Source of the DNA: Candidatus Poseidoniales archaeon
GTDB lineage: Archaea; Thermoplasmatota; Poseidoniia; Poseidoniales; Poseidoniaceae
Direction: 5' to 3'
Length of the DNA stretch: 64,000 bases
NCBI GenBank assembly: GCA_038110525.1
Contig: JAYNJV010000001.1
Coordinates: forward strand, 126,130-190,129
Program-made: the position numbers and the translations under genes
Part shown: positions 29,082 to 35,987 of the stretch, piece after piece
How positions within the stretch are numbered: the stretch's first letter is position 1
Layout: the number at the start of each line of letters is the position of its first letter
The notes under the pieces: model-generated
What the model was told of the DNA's origin: nothing
Database searches by the model: none
The model's input: the letters and a program-made list of their open reading frames with translations, nothing else

Positions 29082-29945
29082 TCATTCTTTATTTTCTTCT
29101 TCAGAAGGGTCATCTTCAGAAGCCTTTTCTAATTTCTTTTGCTTCTTATCTTCTTGCCTTTGTATGAGTTTGTCTCCAAAACTACCCATGTTTTCCAATC
29201 GGGCAAAAATACCAGTTGCTTTGTCAGTCTCTGCAGGGATAAATTTGACTTCGTAGGCTCCAAACATCAAATCGAACATGCCTTGATTCAATTCACTGCC
29301 ATTTCGGATGTATCGGTTGATGAACCACGTAAGGACAAAAATAGTTCCAACAATGGTAAAAATCAATGCATTTGAATTGTCGTCGTCACCAATTTGTGAA
29401 ACCTGAGTGATAATGAGCCAGAATCCGATCAATGAGAATATTCCTACTGTGTTGACCAAGATGCCATGCAAGAAGAACGGGTTAGAACCATCGCCTTTGA
29501 CATACTTCGTTTTAGAGGTAAATTGGCCTAAGTTTCTGCTAAACTTCATGGGGATAACAAAGATATTGAGGAACAAAACGATAATTGCAGCTCCAAATAA
29601 ATAGGTATAAATTCCGATACCTGAACTACCACCGGTCAGGATATTCATGACAATCCCTGCTATAAGGAATCCGAAATTTACAATGAAATTAATCAGCCAA
29701 TTGATACGTCGATTCATATCACTTGCGAGTTCAAATTCCGATGAAAGCCCCTTTGGTCTTGCTTTTGGTTGTGATGCCTTTTGTTTCTTGGCTTCTTTCT
29801 TTGTTGGTGCTGGTGCCACTTCCGCAACTGGTGCTGCGACAGGTGTGGCAGCTACCTCTTTGGTTTTTGGCTCAAAGACTTTTTTTGCTGGTTGGACGGT
29901 TTCCTTTGATTCATTCACTTTGTCAAGTAATCCCATATTTTTCAC
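29082..29945 (-). CDS. Hypothetical membrane protein (4 TM, RDD-like)
   Basis: Charged N-terminus then four hydrophobic segments; ELASDMNRRINWLINF resembles the RDD N-terminal motif; GTG start overlaps the stop of the upstream Pro-rich gene. Confidence 0.75.
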   Translation of the reverse strand: MKNMGLLDKVNESKETVQPAKKVFEPKTKEVAATPVAAPVAEVAPAPTKKEAKKQKASQPKARPKGLSSEFELASDMNRRINWLINFIVNFGFLIAGIVMNILTGGSSGIGIYTYLFGAAIIVLFLNIFVIPMKFSRNLGQFTSKTKYVKGDGSNPFFLHGILVNTVGIFSLIGFWLIITQVSQIGDDDNSNALIFTIVGTIFVLTWFINRYIRNGSELNQGMFDLMFGAYEVKFIPAETDKATGIFARLENMGSFGDKLIQRQEDKKQKKLEKASEDDPSEEENKE

Positions 29946-30985
29946 CTCGAGTATTTTATGACCACTTCTTTGTATATTTCAAAATCAGAAGATTGGGTAA
30001 ATGCGCCTAAATCTGATTCTCCAATGTTTTCAAGCAGTTTGTCTATCATTGAAACAAATTCTGAACGCTGTGCGTTCGTCGTTTCAGAAAAGTTTTGACC
30101 AATCAACATGTAAAGGCCAAAATCTTCGCTTTCAATGAATGACTGAGCAATGTGTTCAGGAAGTGAAGATTCGAGCAATGAGTCGACAATAGAAAAGAAT
30201 TGCAAGAATACCTGGTCGTCTTCATCATTGCTGGGTTTTGCGACCGTCGGTTCCATCATTGCCTTTCGTTGTTGAAGCAAGTTCTGTAATGTTGCTTTCA
30301 ATTGCTGTTCATCATCGCTTTGCCCATTTTCTTTAGCTCTTTGATAAAGCGGCTTCAGCCTACGAATTTCTTGTTCGATATCTTCGAGTGATAATAATTC
30401 GGAATCATTTTCAAGTTGGCCTTCTTCTTCAAGCAGAGTTACTGTAGGTGCTTCACGGATAACAGCTACTTTCTTTTCGTGTTCATTTTTTCTCAAAACG
30501 ATAATCTCTCTGTCGAGCGAATGGCCAAATCTATCAGCGTATCGATCAAGCAAGGAGCCTGCATCGGCATTACTGATTCGGTCGATATGTCCATAGATTT
30601 GTTGGAGGGGCTTTTCAGAACGTTTTGCCCATAATTTTTGATAATCATTTGAAGTTTCAACGGGTTCAGCAACTGCAGGTGAAGGAGTAACAGGTGCTGG
30701 AAGTGGCGCTGGCAATGGAGTTGTTGCTTCGGGCACTGGGACAGGTGGCAGAACAGGTTCTGGAACTGGTGCCGCTGGTGCAGGTTCAGGAGGTAACGCT
30801 GCTGGTGGAACAATTGGCGCAGGAACATTTGATTGAGGCAGAGGAGGCATTGGAGGCATTGTTACTCCTGGAACTGGTTGAAGTGGTGGAGCAGGCATTC
30901 CCGGAGCTGGAGGCATAGGAGGCATAGGCATGCCAGGAGCAGGTGGGAGAACAGGGTTTGATTTTGACTTGTCTTTACGTGACAA
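29942..30985 (-). CDS. Proline-rich hypothetical protein with central conserved block, coiled coil and helical C-terminal domain
   Basis: TTG start at 30985 preceded by AGGTGGT; about 95 residues of P/A/M/V-rich sequence then YQKLWAKRSEKPLQQIYGHIDRI. Confidence 0.8.
   Translation of the reverse strand: MSRKDKSKSNPVLPPAPGMPMPPMPPAPGMPAPPLQPVPGVTMPPMPPLPQSNVPAPIVPPAALPPEPAPAAPVPEPVLPPVPVPEATTPLPAPLPAPVTPSPAVAEPVETSNDYQKLWAKRSEKPLQQIYGHIDRISNADAGSLLDRYADRFGHSLDREIIVLRKNEHEKKVAVIREAPTVTLLEEEGQLENDSELLSLEDIEQEIRRLKPLYQRAKENGQSDDEQQLKATLQNLLQQRKAMMEPTVAKPSNDEDDQVFLQFFSIVDSLLESSLPEHIAQSFIESEDFGLYMLIGQNFSETTNAQRSEFVSMIDKLLENIGESDLGAFTQSSDFEIYKEVVIKYSR
30690..30960 (-). repeat. Pro-rich low-complexity repeats (PPAPGMP, PAP, PVP)
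   Basis: PPAPGMPMPPMPPAPGMPAPP...PAPLPAPVTPSP in the translation. Boundaries approximate. Confidence 0.8.
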
Positions 30986-31067
30986 AAATGACCACCTAAA
31001 GCGTAGGAACAGCCCTCTACCCTTGAACCTTACCACGAAATGATGTGAATTCTTGGTAAAAAAATCC

Positions 31068-32314: not shown

Positions 32315-32521
32315 TTATTCTTTCATCCAGAATCGTTGTTCGGATTCAGAAACTACTGAAGATGAATCTGCCCCAGTCCGTTCAACATAATGTTCCCAAC
32401 AGAGGTAAATATTTTCGAAAACCATTGCATTGCCGAACGTCATACGTACTCCACAAGCGTCACATCTTGGTCCTATCTCCCCGTTAGGAGCCTGTGCTAA
32501 CTGGATGTGTTCATGGGGCAT
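32315..32521 (-). CDS. Small CxxC...CxxH zinc-finger protein (68 aa)
   Basis: RCDACG and YLCWEHY; GAGG upstream of the ATG; sits in the co-oriented cluster between the DOHH-like gene and priS. Confidence 0.75.
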   Translation of the reverse strand: MPHEHIQLAQAPNGEIGPRCDACGVRMTFGNAMVFENIYLCWEHYVERTGADSSSVVSESEQRFWMKE

Positions 32522-32574: not shown

Positions 32575-33054
32575 TTATTCTGAAAAGTCTTCGAATTCAG
32601 CCGATTGAACCCAGTGCAGCAAATCAAGTGCGACGATACATGACTCTGCAATTTCAGGCTTAGGGTGATTCTTGAATTCTTCAAGTATGTTGATAATTGA
32701 TCTATCGCCGATGGCCCCCATTGCTTCGGCAGCCTCATGTCGAACCATCACATGTTCTTCCTCGTCCGAAAGTACTTCTATCAACTTGGGTAAGACCACA
32801 TTGTTTTGCATTTGACCAAGTACATATGCAATTTCATGTCTTAACAAAGCACTAGAACAATGAAATCCTTCACAAAGAGCAAGGGCAGCCTCATCTGAAC
32901 GAATATTACGTAAGGCAAATACTGCCCTCATTCGCTGAAACATTGGTATGTCGTTGTTCAATACATCATTTTTGTATGTGGAAATTTGACCTCCAAGTTG
33001 TGGAGGTGCGGGGTCAACACTTCCAAATTCACTCGCGGGAGGTTTCTTTTCCAT
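32575..33054 (-). CDS. HEAT-repeat protein equivalent to one half of deoxyhypusine hydroxylase (DOHH)
   Basis: SVDPAPP; FQRMRAVFALRN; EAALALCEGFHCSSALLRHEIAYVLGQMQ; MVRHEAAEAMGAIG; ESCIVALD. Start at ATG 33054, 4 nt after the mqnD stop. Confidence 0.88.
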   Translation of the reverse strand: MEKKPPASEFGSVDPAPPQLGGQISTYKNDVLNNDIPMFQRMRAVFALRNIRSDEAALALCEGFHCSSALLRHEIAYVLGQMQNNVVLPKLIEVLSDEEEHVMVRHEAAEAMGAIGDRSIINILEEFKNHPKPEIAESCIVALDLLHWVQSAEFEDFSE

Positions 33055-33058
33055 CTTC

Positions 33059-33937
33059 TCATGCTCCGATAAAGTCAATCGTGTTTGGGTCAAAATCATT
33101 GCGAATTAGCCCGAGTGCTTGCCCATCTGTGAGAAACTTTCGAATCGAAGAACGTCCATCATCCTGATAGTCAATCGTTCGTTCATTGACATACATCTGA
33201 ACAAAGGTTCGATTCGTATCATCATCAATACCTCTGCCCCATTGTTTGGCAAATTCTAATGCGGCTTTGGGATTAGATATGGCATATTCTATACTCATTT
33301 TGGTGTACTTTGTGACATCTTCCATGACAGATTGCCCTAAATCTCTTCTCACGACATTTCCACCAAGTGGCATTGGCCAACCATTGTTGGTGGAATTCCA
33401 CCATTTTCCAACATCGAGCAAAACGTCAAGCTCGTGATTTTTGTAAGTCAGTTGTCCTTCATGAATGATTAAACCAGAGGTTACTCGGCCATCTAAGATG
33501 TGGTCAATAATTTCATCAAATGGAACAACAACATAATCAAAATTTCCCCAAGCAAGACGAAGTCCGAGGAAAGCACTTGTTTTTGTTCCTGGTATGGCAA
33601 TAGGGTTCTTCTTTGCTTCTTCTTCAGTGGTACCCGTTTTTGCAACAATCATGGGTCCATATCCTTCACCCATAGATGCACCACAATTCATCAGAGCGTA
33701 ATCATCGGCAATTTCGGGATAAGCGTGTATTGAAACTGCGGATACTTCCAATTCTTTGTTCATGGCCCGATGATTTAATGTCTCAATATCTTGCAATTCA
33801 TGGACAAAGACATAACCTGGGGTAGGAAATGCTTGCGTTGTCATTGCATGGAACATAAAAGCGTCATCTGGATCTGGACTGTGGCCTATTCGAATTATCT
33901 TGTTTCCTTGTTCATCGGTGGGCAATTGTGCGTGCAT
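33059..33937 (-). CDS. mqnD: 1,4-dihydroxy-6-naphthoate synthase MqnD
   Basis: GHSPDPDDAFMF, DIETLN, GASMGEGYGP, AIPGTKTSA, GLIIHEGQLTY, PMPLGGN, FVQMYVN. Confidence 0.93.
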   Translation of the reverse strand: MHAQLPTDEQGNKIIRIGHSPDPDDAFMFHAMTTQAFPTPGYVFVHELQDIETLNHRAMNKELEVSAVSIHAYPEIADDYALMNCGASMGEGYGPMIVAKTGTTEEEAKKNPIAIPGTKTSAFLGLRLAWGNFDYVVVPFDEIIDHILDGRVTSGLIIHEGQLTYKNHELDVLLDVGKWWNSTNNGWPMPLGGNVVRRDLGQSVMEDVTKYTKMSIEYAISNPKAALEFAKQWGRGIDDDTNRTFVQMYVNERTIDYQDDGRSSIRKFLTDGQALGLIRNDFDPNTIDFIGA

Positions 33938-33949
33938 GTTATCTTCTCC

Positions 33950-34774
33950 TTACATTGTTTGCTCAACAAGATGTTTCTTGGTTTGAAACATCATGAATTC
34001 AGCGTTACTACCTTGTCCAAAGATTGTGTTCAAAAACTCATTCAATCCAAAGATATGTTCTTCGTCAAGTCGGTTGAAAACTTCACCAAAATAACGCTGC
34101 AACCGTTCAATGGTCAAATGTGATTTCATCGCAGATGTATGTACGACCATTTCGCGAATGTTTATTGAATTTTCAAAGTCTTCTAGATTCTTCAAAAGGA
34201 GGTGATGTGCTTGTTCAATATCGCTCATTGGCGTGTCTTTTCTCGCAGCGAAGACGCCAAAAACCATTGGAAGCGAAGTGTGTTCAAACCATTCTTGGCC
34301 TAAATCGAAGACTACAGAATGCACGCCTTCCTTTGTTGCTTGAAGAGCACGGTCCCCGATGAGTAATGCAGCATCGCATGTTTCCAACATTGCATCAATA
34401 TCTGGGCCCATTTCAAAATAATCAACATCGACTCCCTTTAACTTTAGAATATGTTTGCACAAAACAATGGATGTCGCGGAATCAGAAGGTAATGCAACAG
34501 TCTTGATTTCAGAAAGAGTTTTGTTGCTAAACAGTAAAACACTGCCAACTTCTCCCTTTGAGCATATGCCAATGTCTGGAATGAGAATTAATTCATCTCG
34601 ATGCTTTGCGTAATCAGCCGCTGGAATCGGGGCTACAATACAATCTCTTCGTAAGATGTGCCCCGTAAGCCATGAGGGTGGTGCTGCCAATACGTTCCAA
34701 TTGTTTGGAATTGAATGAAATAATGGCTCGCAATTGAGGAATGCAACCCTACCAATTGTATTTTTCCAACTCAT
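33950..34774 (-). CDS. mqnA: Chorismate dehydratase MqnA
   Basis: GRVAFLNCEP, GEVGSVLLF, SATSIVL, AALLIGDRAL, DLGQEW, LPMVFGVF; start at ATG 34774 just after the upstream stop. Confidence 0.9.
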   Translation of the reverse strand: MSWKNTIGRVAFLNCEPLFHSIPNNWNVLAAPPSWLTGHILRRDCIVAPIPAADYAKHRDELILIPDIGICSKGEVGSVLLFSNKTLSEIKTVALPSDSATSIVLCKHILKLKGVDVDYFEMGPDIDAMLETCDAALLIGDRALQATKEGVHSVVFDLGQEWFEHTSLPMVFGVFAARKDTPMSDIEQAHHLLLKNLEDFENSINIREMVVHTSAMKSHLTIERLQRYFGEVFNRLDEEHIFGLNEFLNTIFGQGSNAEFMMFQTKKHLVEQTM

Positions 34775-34778
34775 TCTT

Positions 34779-35987
34779 TCACCCCTGAACAACTGGTAAT
34801 TGTATTCTTCGAGGAATCTCTGGCCTGATGAATGGCTGTGCTCTATCGTATGTTGTATTTCTTCGTACGGGGATAGAATCTGAATTTTCAATCAATTTTG
34901 CCAACATGGTATTGTCCAGTTCCAAGAGCGCATTCGAACCCGCAGAATGCATAATGGATTCCTTTTGAACAATTCCATCGATATCATCAGCACCGTATTG
35001 GAGTGCCAATTCTGCAAGATGATCGCCAATATTCATTCTGTAAGCTTTGATGTGAGGTACATTCGTCATCATAATTCTCGATATACTAATCATTCTAAGT
35101 ATTTCTTGACCCGTAGCGAGTTGTGCCTCTGGAAGACGAGTATTATCTTGAAGGAAGGGGTATGGTACAAAGCACTGGAAACCATTGGTATCACTTTGTA
35201 AGTTTCTCAATTGAAGAAGATGTTGAATTCTTTGTTCAGGAGTTTCAATTGTTCCAAAGAGCATGGTACAATTGGTCGGTATGCCCAATTTATGGGCCTC
35301 CCGATGGATGTCCAAATATTCCTTTGAACTCTCTTTACCATTGCAAATGATTGCCCTTACCTCATCATTGAGAATTTCTGCTCCACCACCTGGTAAAGAT
35401 GTTAATCCCGAATTCTTTAGACGTTTTAAGACTTCAGCAACTGAAATATTTGATTGTTGAGAAAGATGTTTAATTTCAACTGCTGAAAGTGATTTAATTG
35501 AAATGTGAGGGAATTTCTTTTTGACTGTAGTAAATAATTCTTCGTAGTACTCAATTGTCCAATCAGGGTGGAGGCCTCCGACTGTGTGAACTTCATCTAC
35601 GACGTCTTTGTAAGTTTCAAGTTCGTTCACAAAGTCTTCGACTGAATATTCATACGCGTCTTTCGATTTAGGCCCTCTCCTAAATGCACAAAATTTGCAT
35701 GCCAAGACACAAACGTTCGTTTGATTGATGTGGACATTCGAATTAAAGAACACATTCTTGCCATACATTGCATGTTTCACACCGTACGCAATTGCCCCTA
35801 TTTGTGACAATGAAGGGTGGTGAAATAATAATACACCATCGTTTTCATTTAATTCATTTCCATCAATTATTTTTTGAATAATCGTATGCAATTCTTCATC
35901 GAATTGAAGTGTCGATATATTCTGTGAGAAAATGCCACGCCACTCAGGATGGGGGCTCGCCAATGGTGAAATTGGCAATTCTTCCAT
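34779..35987 (-). CDS. mqnE: Radical SAM enzyme of the CofH/MqnC/MqnE family, most likely aminofutalosine synthase MqnE
   Basis: TNVCVLACKFCAF, GGLHPDW, IKSLSAVEI, SLPGGGAEI, HIKAY, LQYGADDIDG; context with mqnA and mqnD. MqnC cannot be fully excluded. Confidence 0.8.
   Translation of the reverse strand: MEELPISPLASPHPEWRGIFSQNISTLQFDEELHTIIQKIIDGNELNENDGVLLFHHPSLSQIGAIAYGVKHAMYGKNVFFNSNVHINQTNVCVLACKFCAFRRGPKSKDAYEYSVEDFVNELETYKDVVDEVHTVGGLHPDWTIEYYEELFTTVKKKFPHISIKSLSAVEIKHLSQQSNISVAEVLKRLKNSGLTSLPGGGAEILNDEVRAIICNGKESSKEYLDIHREAHKLGIPTNCTMLFGTIETPEQRIQHLLQLRNLQSDTNGFQCFVPYPFLQDNTRLPEAQLATGQEILRMISISRIMMTNVPHIKAYRMNIGDHLAELALQYGADDIDGIVQKESIMHSAGSNALLELDNTMLAKLIENSDSIPVRRNTTYDRAQPFIRPEIPRRIQLPVVQG

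What the first reader, a model, noticed from the sequence alone, without database searches (positions are those of the whole stretch)
32575..33054. Stand-alone half-size deoxyhypusine hydroxylase (DOHH) in an archaeon
Seen: a 159-aa ORF with SVDPAPP, then RMRAVFALRN, EAALALCEGFHCSSALLRHEIAYVLGQMQ, MVRHEAAEAMGAIG and ESCIVALD, i.e. four HEAT hairpins with two His-Glu motifs. Established: eukaryotic DOHH is a two-fold internal repeat whose four HE motifs (two per half) hold a di-iron centre, and SVDPAPP is its inter-domain linker. Hypusinated aIF5A is reported in some archaea, yet to my knowledge no archaeal DOHH orthologue is established. Against human DOHH as I recall it, this protein mixes C-half features (SVDPAPP, EAALAL.EG.HC.SAL, ESC.VALD) with N-half features (GQMQ, AIGD...IL, terminal W), as expected of a pre-duplication unit. 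The gene starts 4 nt after the mqnD stop, so there is no room for a missing half: it is complete as a half-enzyme. Inference: it homodimerises to rebuild the 4-HE di-iron site and may hydroxylate deoxyhypusine on aIF5A in an aerobic marine archaeon; it is either a relative of the ancestral DOHH or a eukaryote-to-archaeon transfer.
Basis: partly seen in the sequence, partly recalled or inferred. Interest (0 to 1): 0.9.

Follow-up and report, generated by a model that had tools for sequence, protein, structure and literature searches.

The report
Half-size deoxyhypusine hydroxylase in marine archaea
This Marine Group II archaeon carries a well-conserved gene for one lobe of the two-lobed iron enzyme that eukaryotes use to finish the hypusine modification of translation factor 5A, an enzyme that published reviews say archaea lack.

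Summary
Window 32575..33054 (minus strand) encodes a 159-aa protein that starts 4 nt after the mqnD stop.

- **Homology:** it matches human deoxyhypusine hydroxylase (DOHH, PDB 4D4Z) at E = 3e-66. It aligns to both lobes. The match to the C-lobe is better and includes the SVDPAPP segment.
- **Structure:** an AlphaFold model (pLDDT 93.5) superposes on one DOHH lobe at 1.3 Å.
- **Key residues:** both His-Glu motifs (H73-E74, H106-E107) and the substrate-binding Gly (G80) are invariant in 66 archaeal homologues.
- **Genome:** there is a single copy and no second lobe. Two DHS homologues and aIF5A are present.
- **Distribution:** 116 of 151 sampled Poseidoniales genomes and at least eight other Thermoplasmatota families.
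- **mqnD link:** adjacency to mqnD is specific to Poseidoniales, and the two genes occur independently across the phylum.

The likeliest mechanism is a homodimer that forms a di-iron site and hydroxylates deoxyhypusine on aIF5A. This is inferred, not shown.

The origin is unresolved. The archaeal proteins lie outside both eukaryotic lobe clades. AU tests do not reject the topology expected of a pre-duplication form (eukaryotic N- and C-lobes as sisters; p 0.41-0.46).

I found no paper describing this protein. It is a new variant of a known enzyme.

The parts
32575..33054 (-). Gene for the 159-aa single-lobe DOHH homologue (arm plus four HEAT hairpins), stop codon included
33001..33021 (-). N-terminal arm motif SVDPAPP (residues 12-18). 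It corresponds to the inter-lobe segment of eukaryotic DOHH. DPAP is invariant in 66 archaeal homologues, and D and P are invariant in 85 two-lobe C-lobes.
32833..32838 (-). First His-Glu motif, H73-E74, equivalent to human H56-E57 and H207-E208
   Evidence: PMC9117371
32815..32817 (-). G80 in LGQ, equivalent to human G63/G214, the substrate-binding glycine
   Evidence: PMC9117371
32734..32739 (-). Second His-Glu motif, H106-E107, equivalent to human H89-E90 and H240-E241
33055..33058 (-). 4-nt spacer (GAAG) between the mqnD stop and the start codon. The layout suggests translational coupling.
33059..33937 (-). mqnD (PF02621, 221 bits), the upstream gene. This adjacency is conserved throughout Poseidoniales and in no other family.
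33950..35987 (-). Further futalosine-pathway genes upstream: an MqnA-like PF02621 protein (33950-34891) and an MqnE/MqnC-type radical SAM protein (34779-35987). These are context only.
32315..32521 (-). Downstream 68-aa Cys/His-containing ORF, conserved between this gene and priS in Poseidoniales. This is context only.

Best explanation
The gene encodes a complete single-lobe member of the deoxyhypusine hydroxylase family. It has an N-terminal DPAP arm and four HEAT hairpins that carry two His-Glu motifs. By analogy with the two lobes of the eukaryotic enzyme, two copies would pair head to head. Each subunit would hold one iron with H73, H106 and E107, so that a di-iron centre forms on the dimer axis. 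[quoted passage not shown] Shown here: homology, fold, conservation of every catalytic and substrate-binding residue, single copy, presence of DHS and aIF5A, and vertical conservation across Thermoplasmatota. Inferred: dimerisation, iron binding, O2 chemistry and the identity of the substrate. The enzyme appears to be dispensable, as yeast Lia1 is, because several lineages have lost it.
For: The match to human DOHH is E = 3e-66, to both lobes (125 and 99 bits), against 2.7e-29 for the best generic HEAT protein. In 1.84 billion representatives, most of the best 150 hits are ~300-aa proteins that match the query twice, once per lobe. The AF2 model has pLDDT 93.5, and its best PDB match is 4D4Z at TM 0.86-0.88, rmsd 1.3 Å over 144-147 columns and TMt 0.48, which equals one lobe. 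H73, E74, G80, H106 and E107 are invariant in 66 archaeal sequences. They are shared with at least 98% of 85 N-lobes and 85 C-lobes but are absent from generic HEAT repeats, as are R41, F46, S68, L70, Q81 and C139. These positions are the iron ligands and deoxyhypusine-binding residues identified by mutagenesis (PMC9117371). In the published description each arm of the dyad provides one Fe site (PMC8153317). The genome holds only one copy, so four HE motifs require a homodimer. It also holds two DHS homologues and aIF5A with the KPGKHG loop. The gene is in 116 of 151 Poseidoniales genomes and in at least eight further families. Its GC content equals that of its flanks.
Against: No DHS or aIF5A gene lies within ±4 kb of the gene in any of 112 Thermoplasmatota loci. 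In Poseidoniales it is instead coupled to mqnD, and one genome has an in-frame MqnD fusion. About a quarter of the sampled Poseidoniales lack it, including all sampled genomes of three genera, and one genome keeps a decayed remnant. One phylum family of near-complete 1.3-2.0 Mb genomes that carry MqnD (f35, which I take to be Thermoplasma-type) lacks it. Thermoplasma acidophilum is nevertheless reported to contain hypusine (PMC9599864), and some archaea form hypusine without oxygen (PMC7432094). Archaeal hypusine therefore does not generally depend on this protein. The dimer could not be modelled with the tools available.
Confidence: 0.6

Rival explanations
1. It has the same fold and an iron site but acts on a different substrate. 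It would be an O2-dependent hydroxylase working on a quinone or futalosine-pathway intermediate, a polyamine or another protein, as its operon with mqnD might suggest.
For: The mqnD-to-gene adjacency, with a 4-nt spacer here, is conserved in every sampled Poseidoniales locus of both families, even where the flanks are rearranged. One genome (G015) has MqnD and this domain in a single 444-aa ORF. There is no genomic link to DHS or aIF5A.
Against: The two genes occur independently. At least 17 Poseidoniales genomes have MqnD but not this gene. Family f29 (18 genomes) and families f26, f28 and f33 have this gene but no MqnD (versus 41). Outside Poseidoniales the neighbours are folC-like and purH/purN genes. 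The fusion occurs in 1 of 116 loci. The residues that bind the deoxyhypusine side chain in the human enzyme (the E57/E208 and G63/G214 equivalents) are invariant. From general knowledge, the futalosine route to menaquinone has no known step that needs such a hydroxylase.
Confidence: 0.2
2. It is a non-catalytic HEAT-repeat protein, acting as a scaffold, an iron-binding or iron-sensing protein or a chaperone, that merely shares ancestry with DOHH.
For: Pfam sees only the generic HEAT_2 and HEAT_PBS families. A single lobe has only half of the di-iron site.
Against: All catalytic and substrate-binding positions are absolutely conserved over a whole phylum, which is hard to explain without catalysis. 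Similarity to DOHH is far above that to generic HEAT proteins. NCBIfam scores for NblB and CpcE are 22-25 bits against cut-offs of 300-330.
Confidence: 0.08
3. It is an artefact: eukaryotic contamination, a chimeric contig, or a truncated pseudogene left from a two-lobed gene.
For: The protein is 46-50% identical to eukaryotic DOHH, which is unusually high for a match between an archaeon and eukaryotes.
Against: The same gene sits at the same locus between mqnD and archaeal priS in genome after genome. GC content equals that of the flanks. The reading frame is intact in nearly all genomes. It diverges between MGIIa and MGIIb (about 55%) in step with its neighbours MqnD (59%) and PriS (46%). 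The archaeal sequences form their own clades outside the eukaryotic lobes.
Confidence: 0.01
4. Evolutionary rival: the archaeal proteins are C-lobe-type, not pre-duplication. Either a C-lobe with its linker was transferred from a stem eukaryote before the last eukaryotic common ancestor (LECA), or N-type and C-type units had already diverged and the archaea kept only the C-type.
For: The ML tree joins the non-marine Thermoplasmatota clade to the C-lobes (93/78 without an outgroup, 89/81 with one). With a generic-HEAT outgroup the root falls among the N-lobes. The DPAP arm is shared only with C-lobes. Identity to C-lobes (47%) is higher than to N-lobes (43%).
Against: AU tests do not reject N+C as sister lobes (p 0.459 and 0.41). 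N-lobes are the fastest-evolving group, so both the outgroup attachment and the A+C grouping are prone to long-branch attraction. The archaeal proteins are closer to both lobes than the lobes are to each other. A shared arm could simply be ancestral and lost at the free N-terminus of the N-lobe.
Confidence: 0.4

Closest known systems
Eukaryotic deoxyhypusine hydroxylase (human DOHH, PDB 4D4Z/4D50; yeast Lia1; EC 1.14.99.29)
   Same: It has the same HEAT-hairpin lobe fold (rmsd 1.3 Å) and 46-50% identity. The two His-Glu motifs per lobe, the LGQ glycine and the further signature residues R41, F46, S68, L70, Q81 and C139 are all present. The DPAP segment precedes the lobe. DHS and a/eIF5A are present in the genome.
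   Different: It has one lobe (159 aa) instead of two (about 300 aa), so the four-HE di-iron site needs a homodimer. The host is an archaeon. The gene sits in an operon with mqnD. It has been lost in several lineages. Its activity and substrate are untested.
Generic PBS-lyase-type HEAT repeat proteins (Pfam HEAT_2 PF13646, HEAT_PBS PF03130; CpcE/NblB; natural templates of alphaRep)
   Same: They share the repeat type, and the Pfam gathering thresholds are passed (58 and 56.5 bits). The VR..AA.ALG.IG repeat pattern is shared.
   Different: Generic repeats lack the His-Glu pairs and the DOHH signature residues. Structural similarity is much lower (TM about 0.66 against 0.87). NblB and CpcE models score far below their cut-offs.
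Archaeal deoxyhypusine pathway (DHS plus an agmatinase-like protein, Haloferax volcanii; PMC5178350)
   Same: The genome holds a canonical DHS and a second DHS-like gene that lies directly downstream of an arginase-family gene. This is the physical clustering described for haloarchaea.
   Different: That pathway stops at deoxyhypusine and has no hydroxylase. The gene studied here would add the eukaryote-type last step.

Membership tests
Deoxyhypusine hydroxylase (DOHH) | Best sequence match is to DOHH rather than to generic HEAT repeats | tested here: met
   E = 3e-66 to 4D4Z against 2.7e-29 for the next hit. Most of the best 150 representatives are ~300-aa proteins that match the query twice.
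Deoxyhypusine hydroxylase (DOHH) | Fold of a DOHH lobe (four HEAT hairpins) | tested here: met
   AF2 pLDDT 93.5 with eight helices. Foldseek against 4D4Z gives TMq 0.86-0.88 and rmsd 1.3 Å.
Deoxyhypusine hydroxylase (DOHH) | Strictly conserved His-Glu motifs at the iron-binding positions (two per lobe) | tested here: met
   H73-E74 and H106-E107 align with H56-E57/H207-E208 and H89-E90/H240-E241. They are invariant in 66 archaeal sequences and in the N- and C-lobes.
Deoxyhypusine hydroxylase (DOHH) | Residues that bind the deoxyhypusine side chain (the Glu of each HE motif and the Gly63/Gly214 equivalent) | tested here: met
   E74, E107 and G80 are invariant. Their roles are taken from PMC9117371.
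Deoxyhypusine hydroxylase (DOHH) | Eight HEAT repeats in one chain, forming a two-armed dyad with four HE motifs | tested here: not met
   The protein has a single lobe of 159 aa and starts 4 nt after the mqnD stop. The genome holds no second copy, even at E <= 10.
Deoxyhypusine hydroxylase (DOHH) | Di-iron centre (two Fe per holoenzyme), here requiring a homodimer | not testable with these tools
Deoxyhypusine hydroxylase (DOHH) | O2-dependent conversion of deoxyhypusine-IF5A to hypusine | not testable with these tools
   This is a biochemical assay.
Deoxyhypusine hydroxylase (DOHH) | Pathway partners present in the same genome (DHS and IF5A with the KxGKHG loop) | tested here: met
   DHS scores 299.6 bits and a second DHS-like gene 131 bits. 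aIF5A scores 108 bits and has the loop SKSKPGKHGSAKA.
Deoxyhypusine hydroxylase (DOHH) | Genomic association with DHS or aIF5A (supporting evidence, not a defining feature) | tested here: not met
   There are no DHS or aIF5A hits within ±4 kb in 112 loci. In the window's own genome aIF5A lies about 76 kb away.
Futalosine (mqn) menaquinone pathway accessory protein | Co-occurrence with mqnD across genomes | tested here: not met
   At least 17 genomes have MqnD without the gene. Families f29, f26, f28 and f33 have the gene without MqnD.
Phycobilisome-type HEAT proteins (CpcE, NblB) | Score above the NCBIfam equivalog cut-off | tested here: not met
   The scores are 24.6 bits against a cut-off of 300 and 22 bits against 330.

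The most novel reading that the evidence does not exclude
The Thermoplasmatota half-size proteins preserve the pre-fusion architecture of DOHH: an arm plus four HEAT hairpins, working as a C2 homodimer with the di-iron centre on the axis. The eukaryotic two-lobed enzyme would then have arisen from such an archaeal-type gene by head-to-tail duplication and fusion. The second copy's DPAP arm became the inter-lobe linker. Joining the archaeal C-terminal tail to its own N-terminus gives a W-to-DPAP spacing of about 25 residues, against 17-21 in eukaryotes. Marine Group II archaea would then make true hypusine by an O2-dependent, eukaryote-type route.
Probability: 0.3. Interest if true: 0.85.

Novelty: new variant of a known kind. 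Interest (0 to 1): 0.75.

Why it matters
Hypusine on IF5A is one of the most specific protein modifications known. How archaea hydroxylate deoxyhypusine has been an open question for decades. Reviews up to 2021-2022 state that no archaeal DOHH orthologue has been found (PMC5178350, PMC7432094, PMC8153317). This gene gives a concrete candidate that can be cloned, in one of the most abundant archaeal groups of the surface ocean. It also offers a natural 'half enzyme' with which to test how a di-iron oxygenase site can be built across a symmetric interface of a non-enzymatic repeat scaffold (compare PMC9040561). It gives a handle on where the eukaryotic enzyme came from. It does not solve archaeal hypusination in general, because lineages reported to contain hypusine (Thermoplasma, Sulfolobus) are not covered by it. 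Automatic KO-based annotation at JGI already labels some members 'deoxyhypusine monooxygenase', so the novelty lies in recognising and interpreting the protein, not in first detecting the similarity.

Tried and rejected
- **Menaquinone-linked function.** I compared the presence of MqnD and of this gene in the same 401 genomes of the phylum. The two are uncoupled, so this reading was downgraded.
- **Second lobe elsewhere in the genome.** None was found, even at E <= 10.
- **DHS or aIF5A near the gene.** Neither occurs within ±4 kb in any Thermoplasmatota locus.
- **Conserved neighbours outside Poseidoniales.** Only folC-like and purH/purN genes recur, which says nothing about function. Spurious long antisense ORFs in the GC-rich genomes confuse the clustering.
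- **More MqnD fusions.** Only 1 of 116 loci is a real fusion. Nine other long open frames are GC-rich read-through upstream of the true start or artefacts of the motif search.
- **Viral carriers.** No relative was found in 2.9 million viral contigs.
- **Rooting the lobe tree with generic HEAT segments.** The root fell inside the N-lobes without support, which I regard as long-branch attraction. AU tests were indecisive.
- **A relic DPAP arm on eukaryotic N-lobes.** Only 1 of 85 has one (P0176), which is too rare to argue from.
- **Distribution beyond Thermoplasmatota.** The GTDB scan returned 402 matches but lists only the best 80, all Thermoplasmatota-type MAGs, one of them deposited under a Proteobacteria label. 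Other phyla could not be checked. Notes from earlier agents of this scan report half-size forms in Nitrososphaerota and DPANN, some next to DHS. I did not test these.
- **Primary DOHH papers** (Han 2015, Park 2006, Kim 2006). These are not held in the library, so residue roles are cited from reviews.

Full report
**Observation.** The ORF lies on the minus strand at 32575..33054 and encodes 159 aa. The mqnD stop (TGA, 33059-33061) is followed by GAAG and then the ATG at 33054, with a GGAG 10 nt upstream. A longer 174-aa reading from 33099 is possible. Orthologues are 159-162 aa and begin shortly before S[EQ][FY]GSVDPAPP, so the 159-aa start is preferred. GC content (0.41-0.43) equals that of the flanks.

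**What it is.** Pfam sees only the generic HEAT_2 and HEAT_PBS families, and NCBIfam gives sub-threshold hits to NblB and CpcE.
- A direct comparison with solved structures gives human deoxyhypusine hydroxylase (4D4Z) at E = 3e-66. The next hit, a synthetic alphaRep, is at 2.7e-29.
- Residues 4-147 align with the C-lobe (143-286, 125 bits), including SVDPAPP. Residues 33-151 align with the N-lobe (21-139, 99 bits).
- An exhaustive search of 1.84 billion representatives finds 349 proteins at E <= 1e-30. Most of the best 150 are ~300-aa proteins that match the query twice, once per lobe. The few that carry names are eukaryotic (Nematocida, Caenorhabditis). Most of the others looked up sit on short (1-9 kb) contigs.
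- An AlphaFold2 model built on 66 archaeal homologues has pLDDT 93.5 and eight helices. Its best PDB match is 4D4Z, with TM 0.86-0.88 normalised to the query, 0.48 normalised to the target, rmsd 1.3 Å over 144-147 columns and 46% identity. AlphaRep proteins follow at TM about 0.66.
- The model therefore equals one DOHH lobe, including the arm.

**Catalytic residues.** Mutagenesis and the crystal structure assign H56, H89, E90, H207, H240 and E241 to the di-iron centre. [quoted passage not shown]
- The enzyme is described as a symmetrical dyad in which each arm provides one Fe site (PMC8153317).
- The equivalents here are H73, E74, G80, H106 and E107. They are invariant in 66 archaeal sequences and in at least 98% of 85 N-lobes and 85 C-lobes. 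Generic HEAT repeats have other residues at the His-Glu positions, though they too usually have Gly at the G80 position.
- Further positions shared by all three groups but not by generic repeats are R41, F46, S68, L70, Q81 and C139.

**Genome context and distribution.** The window's genome (1.9 Mb, 89% complete) has one copy and no other relative, even at E <= 10.
- It has a canonical DHS (300 bits) and a second DHS-like gene (131 bits) that lies directly downstream of an arginase-family gene.
- It has aIF5A with the loop SKSKPGKHGSAKA. No spermidine synthase was found.
- The gene is present in 116 of 151 sampled genomes of the order, in 18 of 22 genera and in all three families.
- Across the phylum it is present in at least eight further families, always half-size, at 37-57% identity.
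- A scan of one genome per GTDB species found 402 matches. The 80 listed are all Thermoplasmatota-type MAGs, one of them deposited under a Proteobacteria label: Poseidoniales, Thalassarchaeaceae, and soil, groundwater and sediment lineages.
- No viral copies were found.
- Losses are real. One genome keeps a 49-residue remnant after mqnD, and its relatives have a clean deletion.

**The mqnD link.** In every sampled Poseidoniales locus the gene directly follows mqnD, even where the surrounding genes are rearranged. One genome has an in-frame MqnD-HEAT fusion of 444 aa, the only one among 116 loci.
- The two genes are nevertheless independent across the phylum. At least 17 Poseidoniales genomes have MqnD without this gene.
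- Family f29 (18 genomes) and families f26, f28 and f33 have the gene without MqnD.
- Outside Poseidoniales the neighbours are folC-like and purine genes.
- I therefore treat the operon as an inherited arrangement rather than evidence of a role in quinone synthesis, and keep a different-substrate rival at about 0.2.
- Equally, no locus shows DHS or aIF5A nearby. Context gives no positive support for the aIF5A assignment. That assignment rests on residue conservation.

**Mechanism.** With one lobe and one gene copy, a four-HE di-iron site requires a homodimer. Each subunit would give a two-His, one-Glu site to one iron, as each lobe does in the eukaryotic enzyme.
- The DPAP arm is as conserved in the archaeal proteins as in eukaryotic C-lobes, and the monomer model places it with pLDDT 78-87. 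It is therefore a functional part of the unit, not a mere linker.
- Dimerisation, metal binding, O2 chemistry and the substrate are all inferred.
- Dispensability in some lineages parallels the viability of yeast lia1Δ (PMC8153317).
- One phylum family of near-complete 1.3-2.0 Mb genomes that carry MqnD (f35, which I take to be Thermoplasma-type) lacks the gene. Thermoplasma acidophilum is reported to contain hypusine (PMC9599864), so this protein cannot be the general archaeal solution.

**Origin.** Identities over the 114 core columns shared by all lobes are as follows.

| Comparison | Mean identity |
|---|---|
| Archaeal vs eukaryotic N-lobes | 43% |
| Archaeal vs eukaryotic C-lobes | 47% |
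| N-lobes vs C-lobes | 38% |
| N-lobes vs N-lobes | 42% |
| C-lobes vs C-lobes | 49% |

- The archaeal proteins therefore sit near the centre of the family.
- An ML tree (130 rows, LG+C20) recovers four clades: N-lobes (99/97), C-lobes (100/89), MGII plus f29 (99/82) and the other Thermoplasmatota (100/96). The last clade joins the C-lobes at 93/78.
- The archaeal proteins are thus not nested within eukaryotic diversity.
- Divergence between MGIIa and MGIIb (about 55%) tracks that of the neighbouring genes (MqnD 59%, PriS 46%).
- A recent transfer from a eukaryote is therefore excluded.
- Whether they predate the N/C duplication cannot be decided. The AU test does not reject archaeal monophyly, which is equivalent to N and C being sisters (p = 0.459).
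- With generic HEAT segments as outgroup the root falls, unsupported, among the fast-evolving N-lobes. N+C monophyly is again not rejected (p = 0.41).

**Literature and novelty.** Full-text searches found no paper that describes an archaeal or half-size DOHH.
- Reviews and primary papers state that none has been identified (PMC5178350, PMC7432094, PMC8153317).
- JGI's automatic annotation already names some members 'deoxyhypusine monooxygenase', while NCBI calls them HEAT repeat proteins.
- Earlier agents of this scan reached similar conclusions on orthologues in other genomes. They also reported more divergent half-size forms in other archaeal phyla, some next to DHS. I did not test those leads.
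- I classify the finding as a new variant of a known kind.

Noticed in passing
L034 4008-5339 (-) (genome G015, Thalassarchaeaceae-type family f3): MqnD and the half-DOHH are joined in one 444-aa ORF (Pfam VitK2_biosynth plus HEAT_PBS/HEAT_2). This is the only such fusion among 116 loci. It could be a real fusion or a lost stop codon.
   Followed up: partly
L003 1-1018 and 1422-2418 (own genome, contig C17): A second, divergent DHS-like gene (131 bits) lies directly downstream of an arginase-family (agmatinase-like) gene. This is the clustering that PMC5178350 linked to aIF5A modification in haloarchaea. The genome has no detectable spermidine synthase (PF01564), so the aminobutyl donor may not be spermidine.
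   Followed up: partly
window 32315-32521 (-): A 68-aa ORF with Cys/His residues (CDACG...LCWEHY) is conserved between the half-DOHH gene and priS across Poseidoniales (36-94% identity). It has no Pfam family.
   Followed up: no
L116 1356-1496 (genome G062): A decayed 49-residue N-terminal remnant of the gene sits after mqnD in a genus-g2 genome that lacks the gene. The relatives G026 and G046 have a clean deletion at the same place.
   Followed up: partly
P0176 (312-aa two-lobe DOHH, unnamed source), residues 1-20: Its N-lobe begins with two DPAP motifs (MSAEDPAPKPEQARDPAPL...). It is the only one of 85 two-lobe proteins with an arm-like motif on the N-lobe. This may be a relic of an ancestral arm, or chance.
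   Followed up: no
window 29942-31036 (-): A 364-aa ORF has a very proline-rich N-terminal half (PPMPPAPGMPAPP...) in a local GC peak (0.50 against about 0.40).
   Followed up: no
L036 (JAJPHT010000023.1): The record is titled 'Proteobacteria bacterium' but is identical to a contig of genome G247, which the genome search places in the window's phylum (Thermoplasmatota). The deposited name is probably wrong. Several binchicken MAGs that carry the gene are labelled 'Halobacteriales' in the same doubtful way.
   Followed up: no
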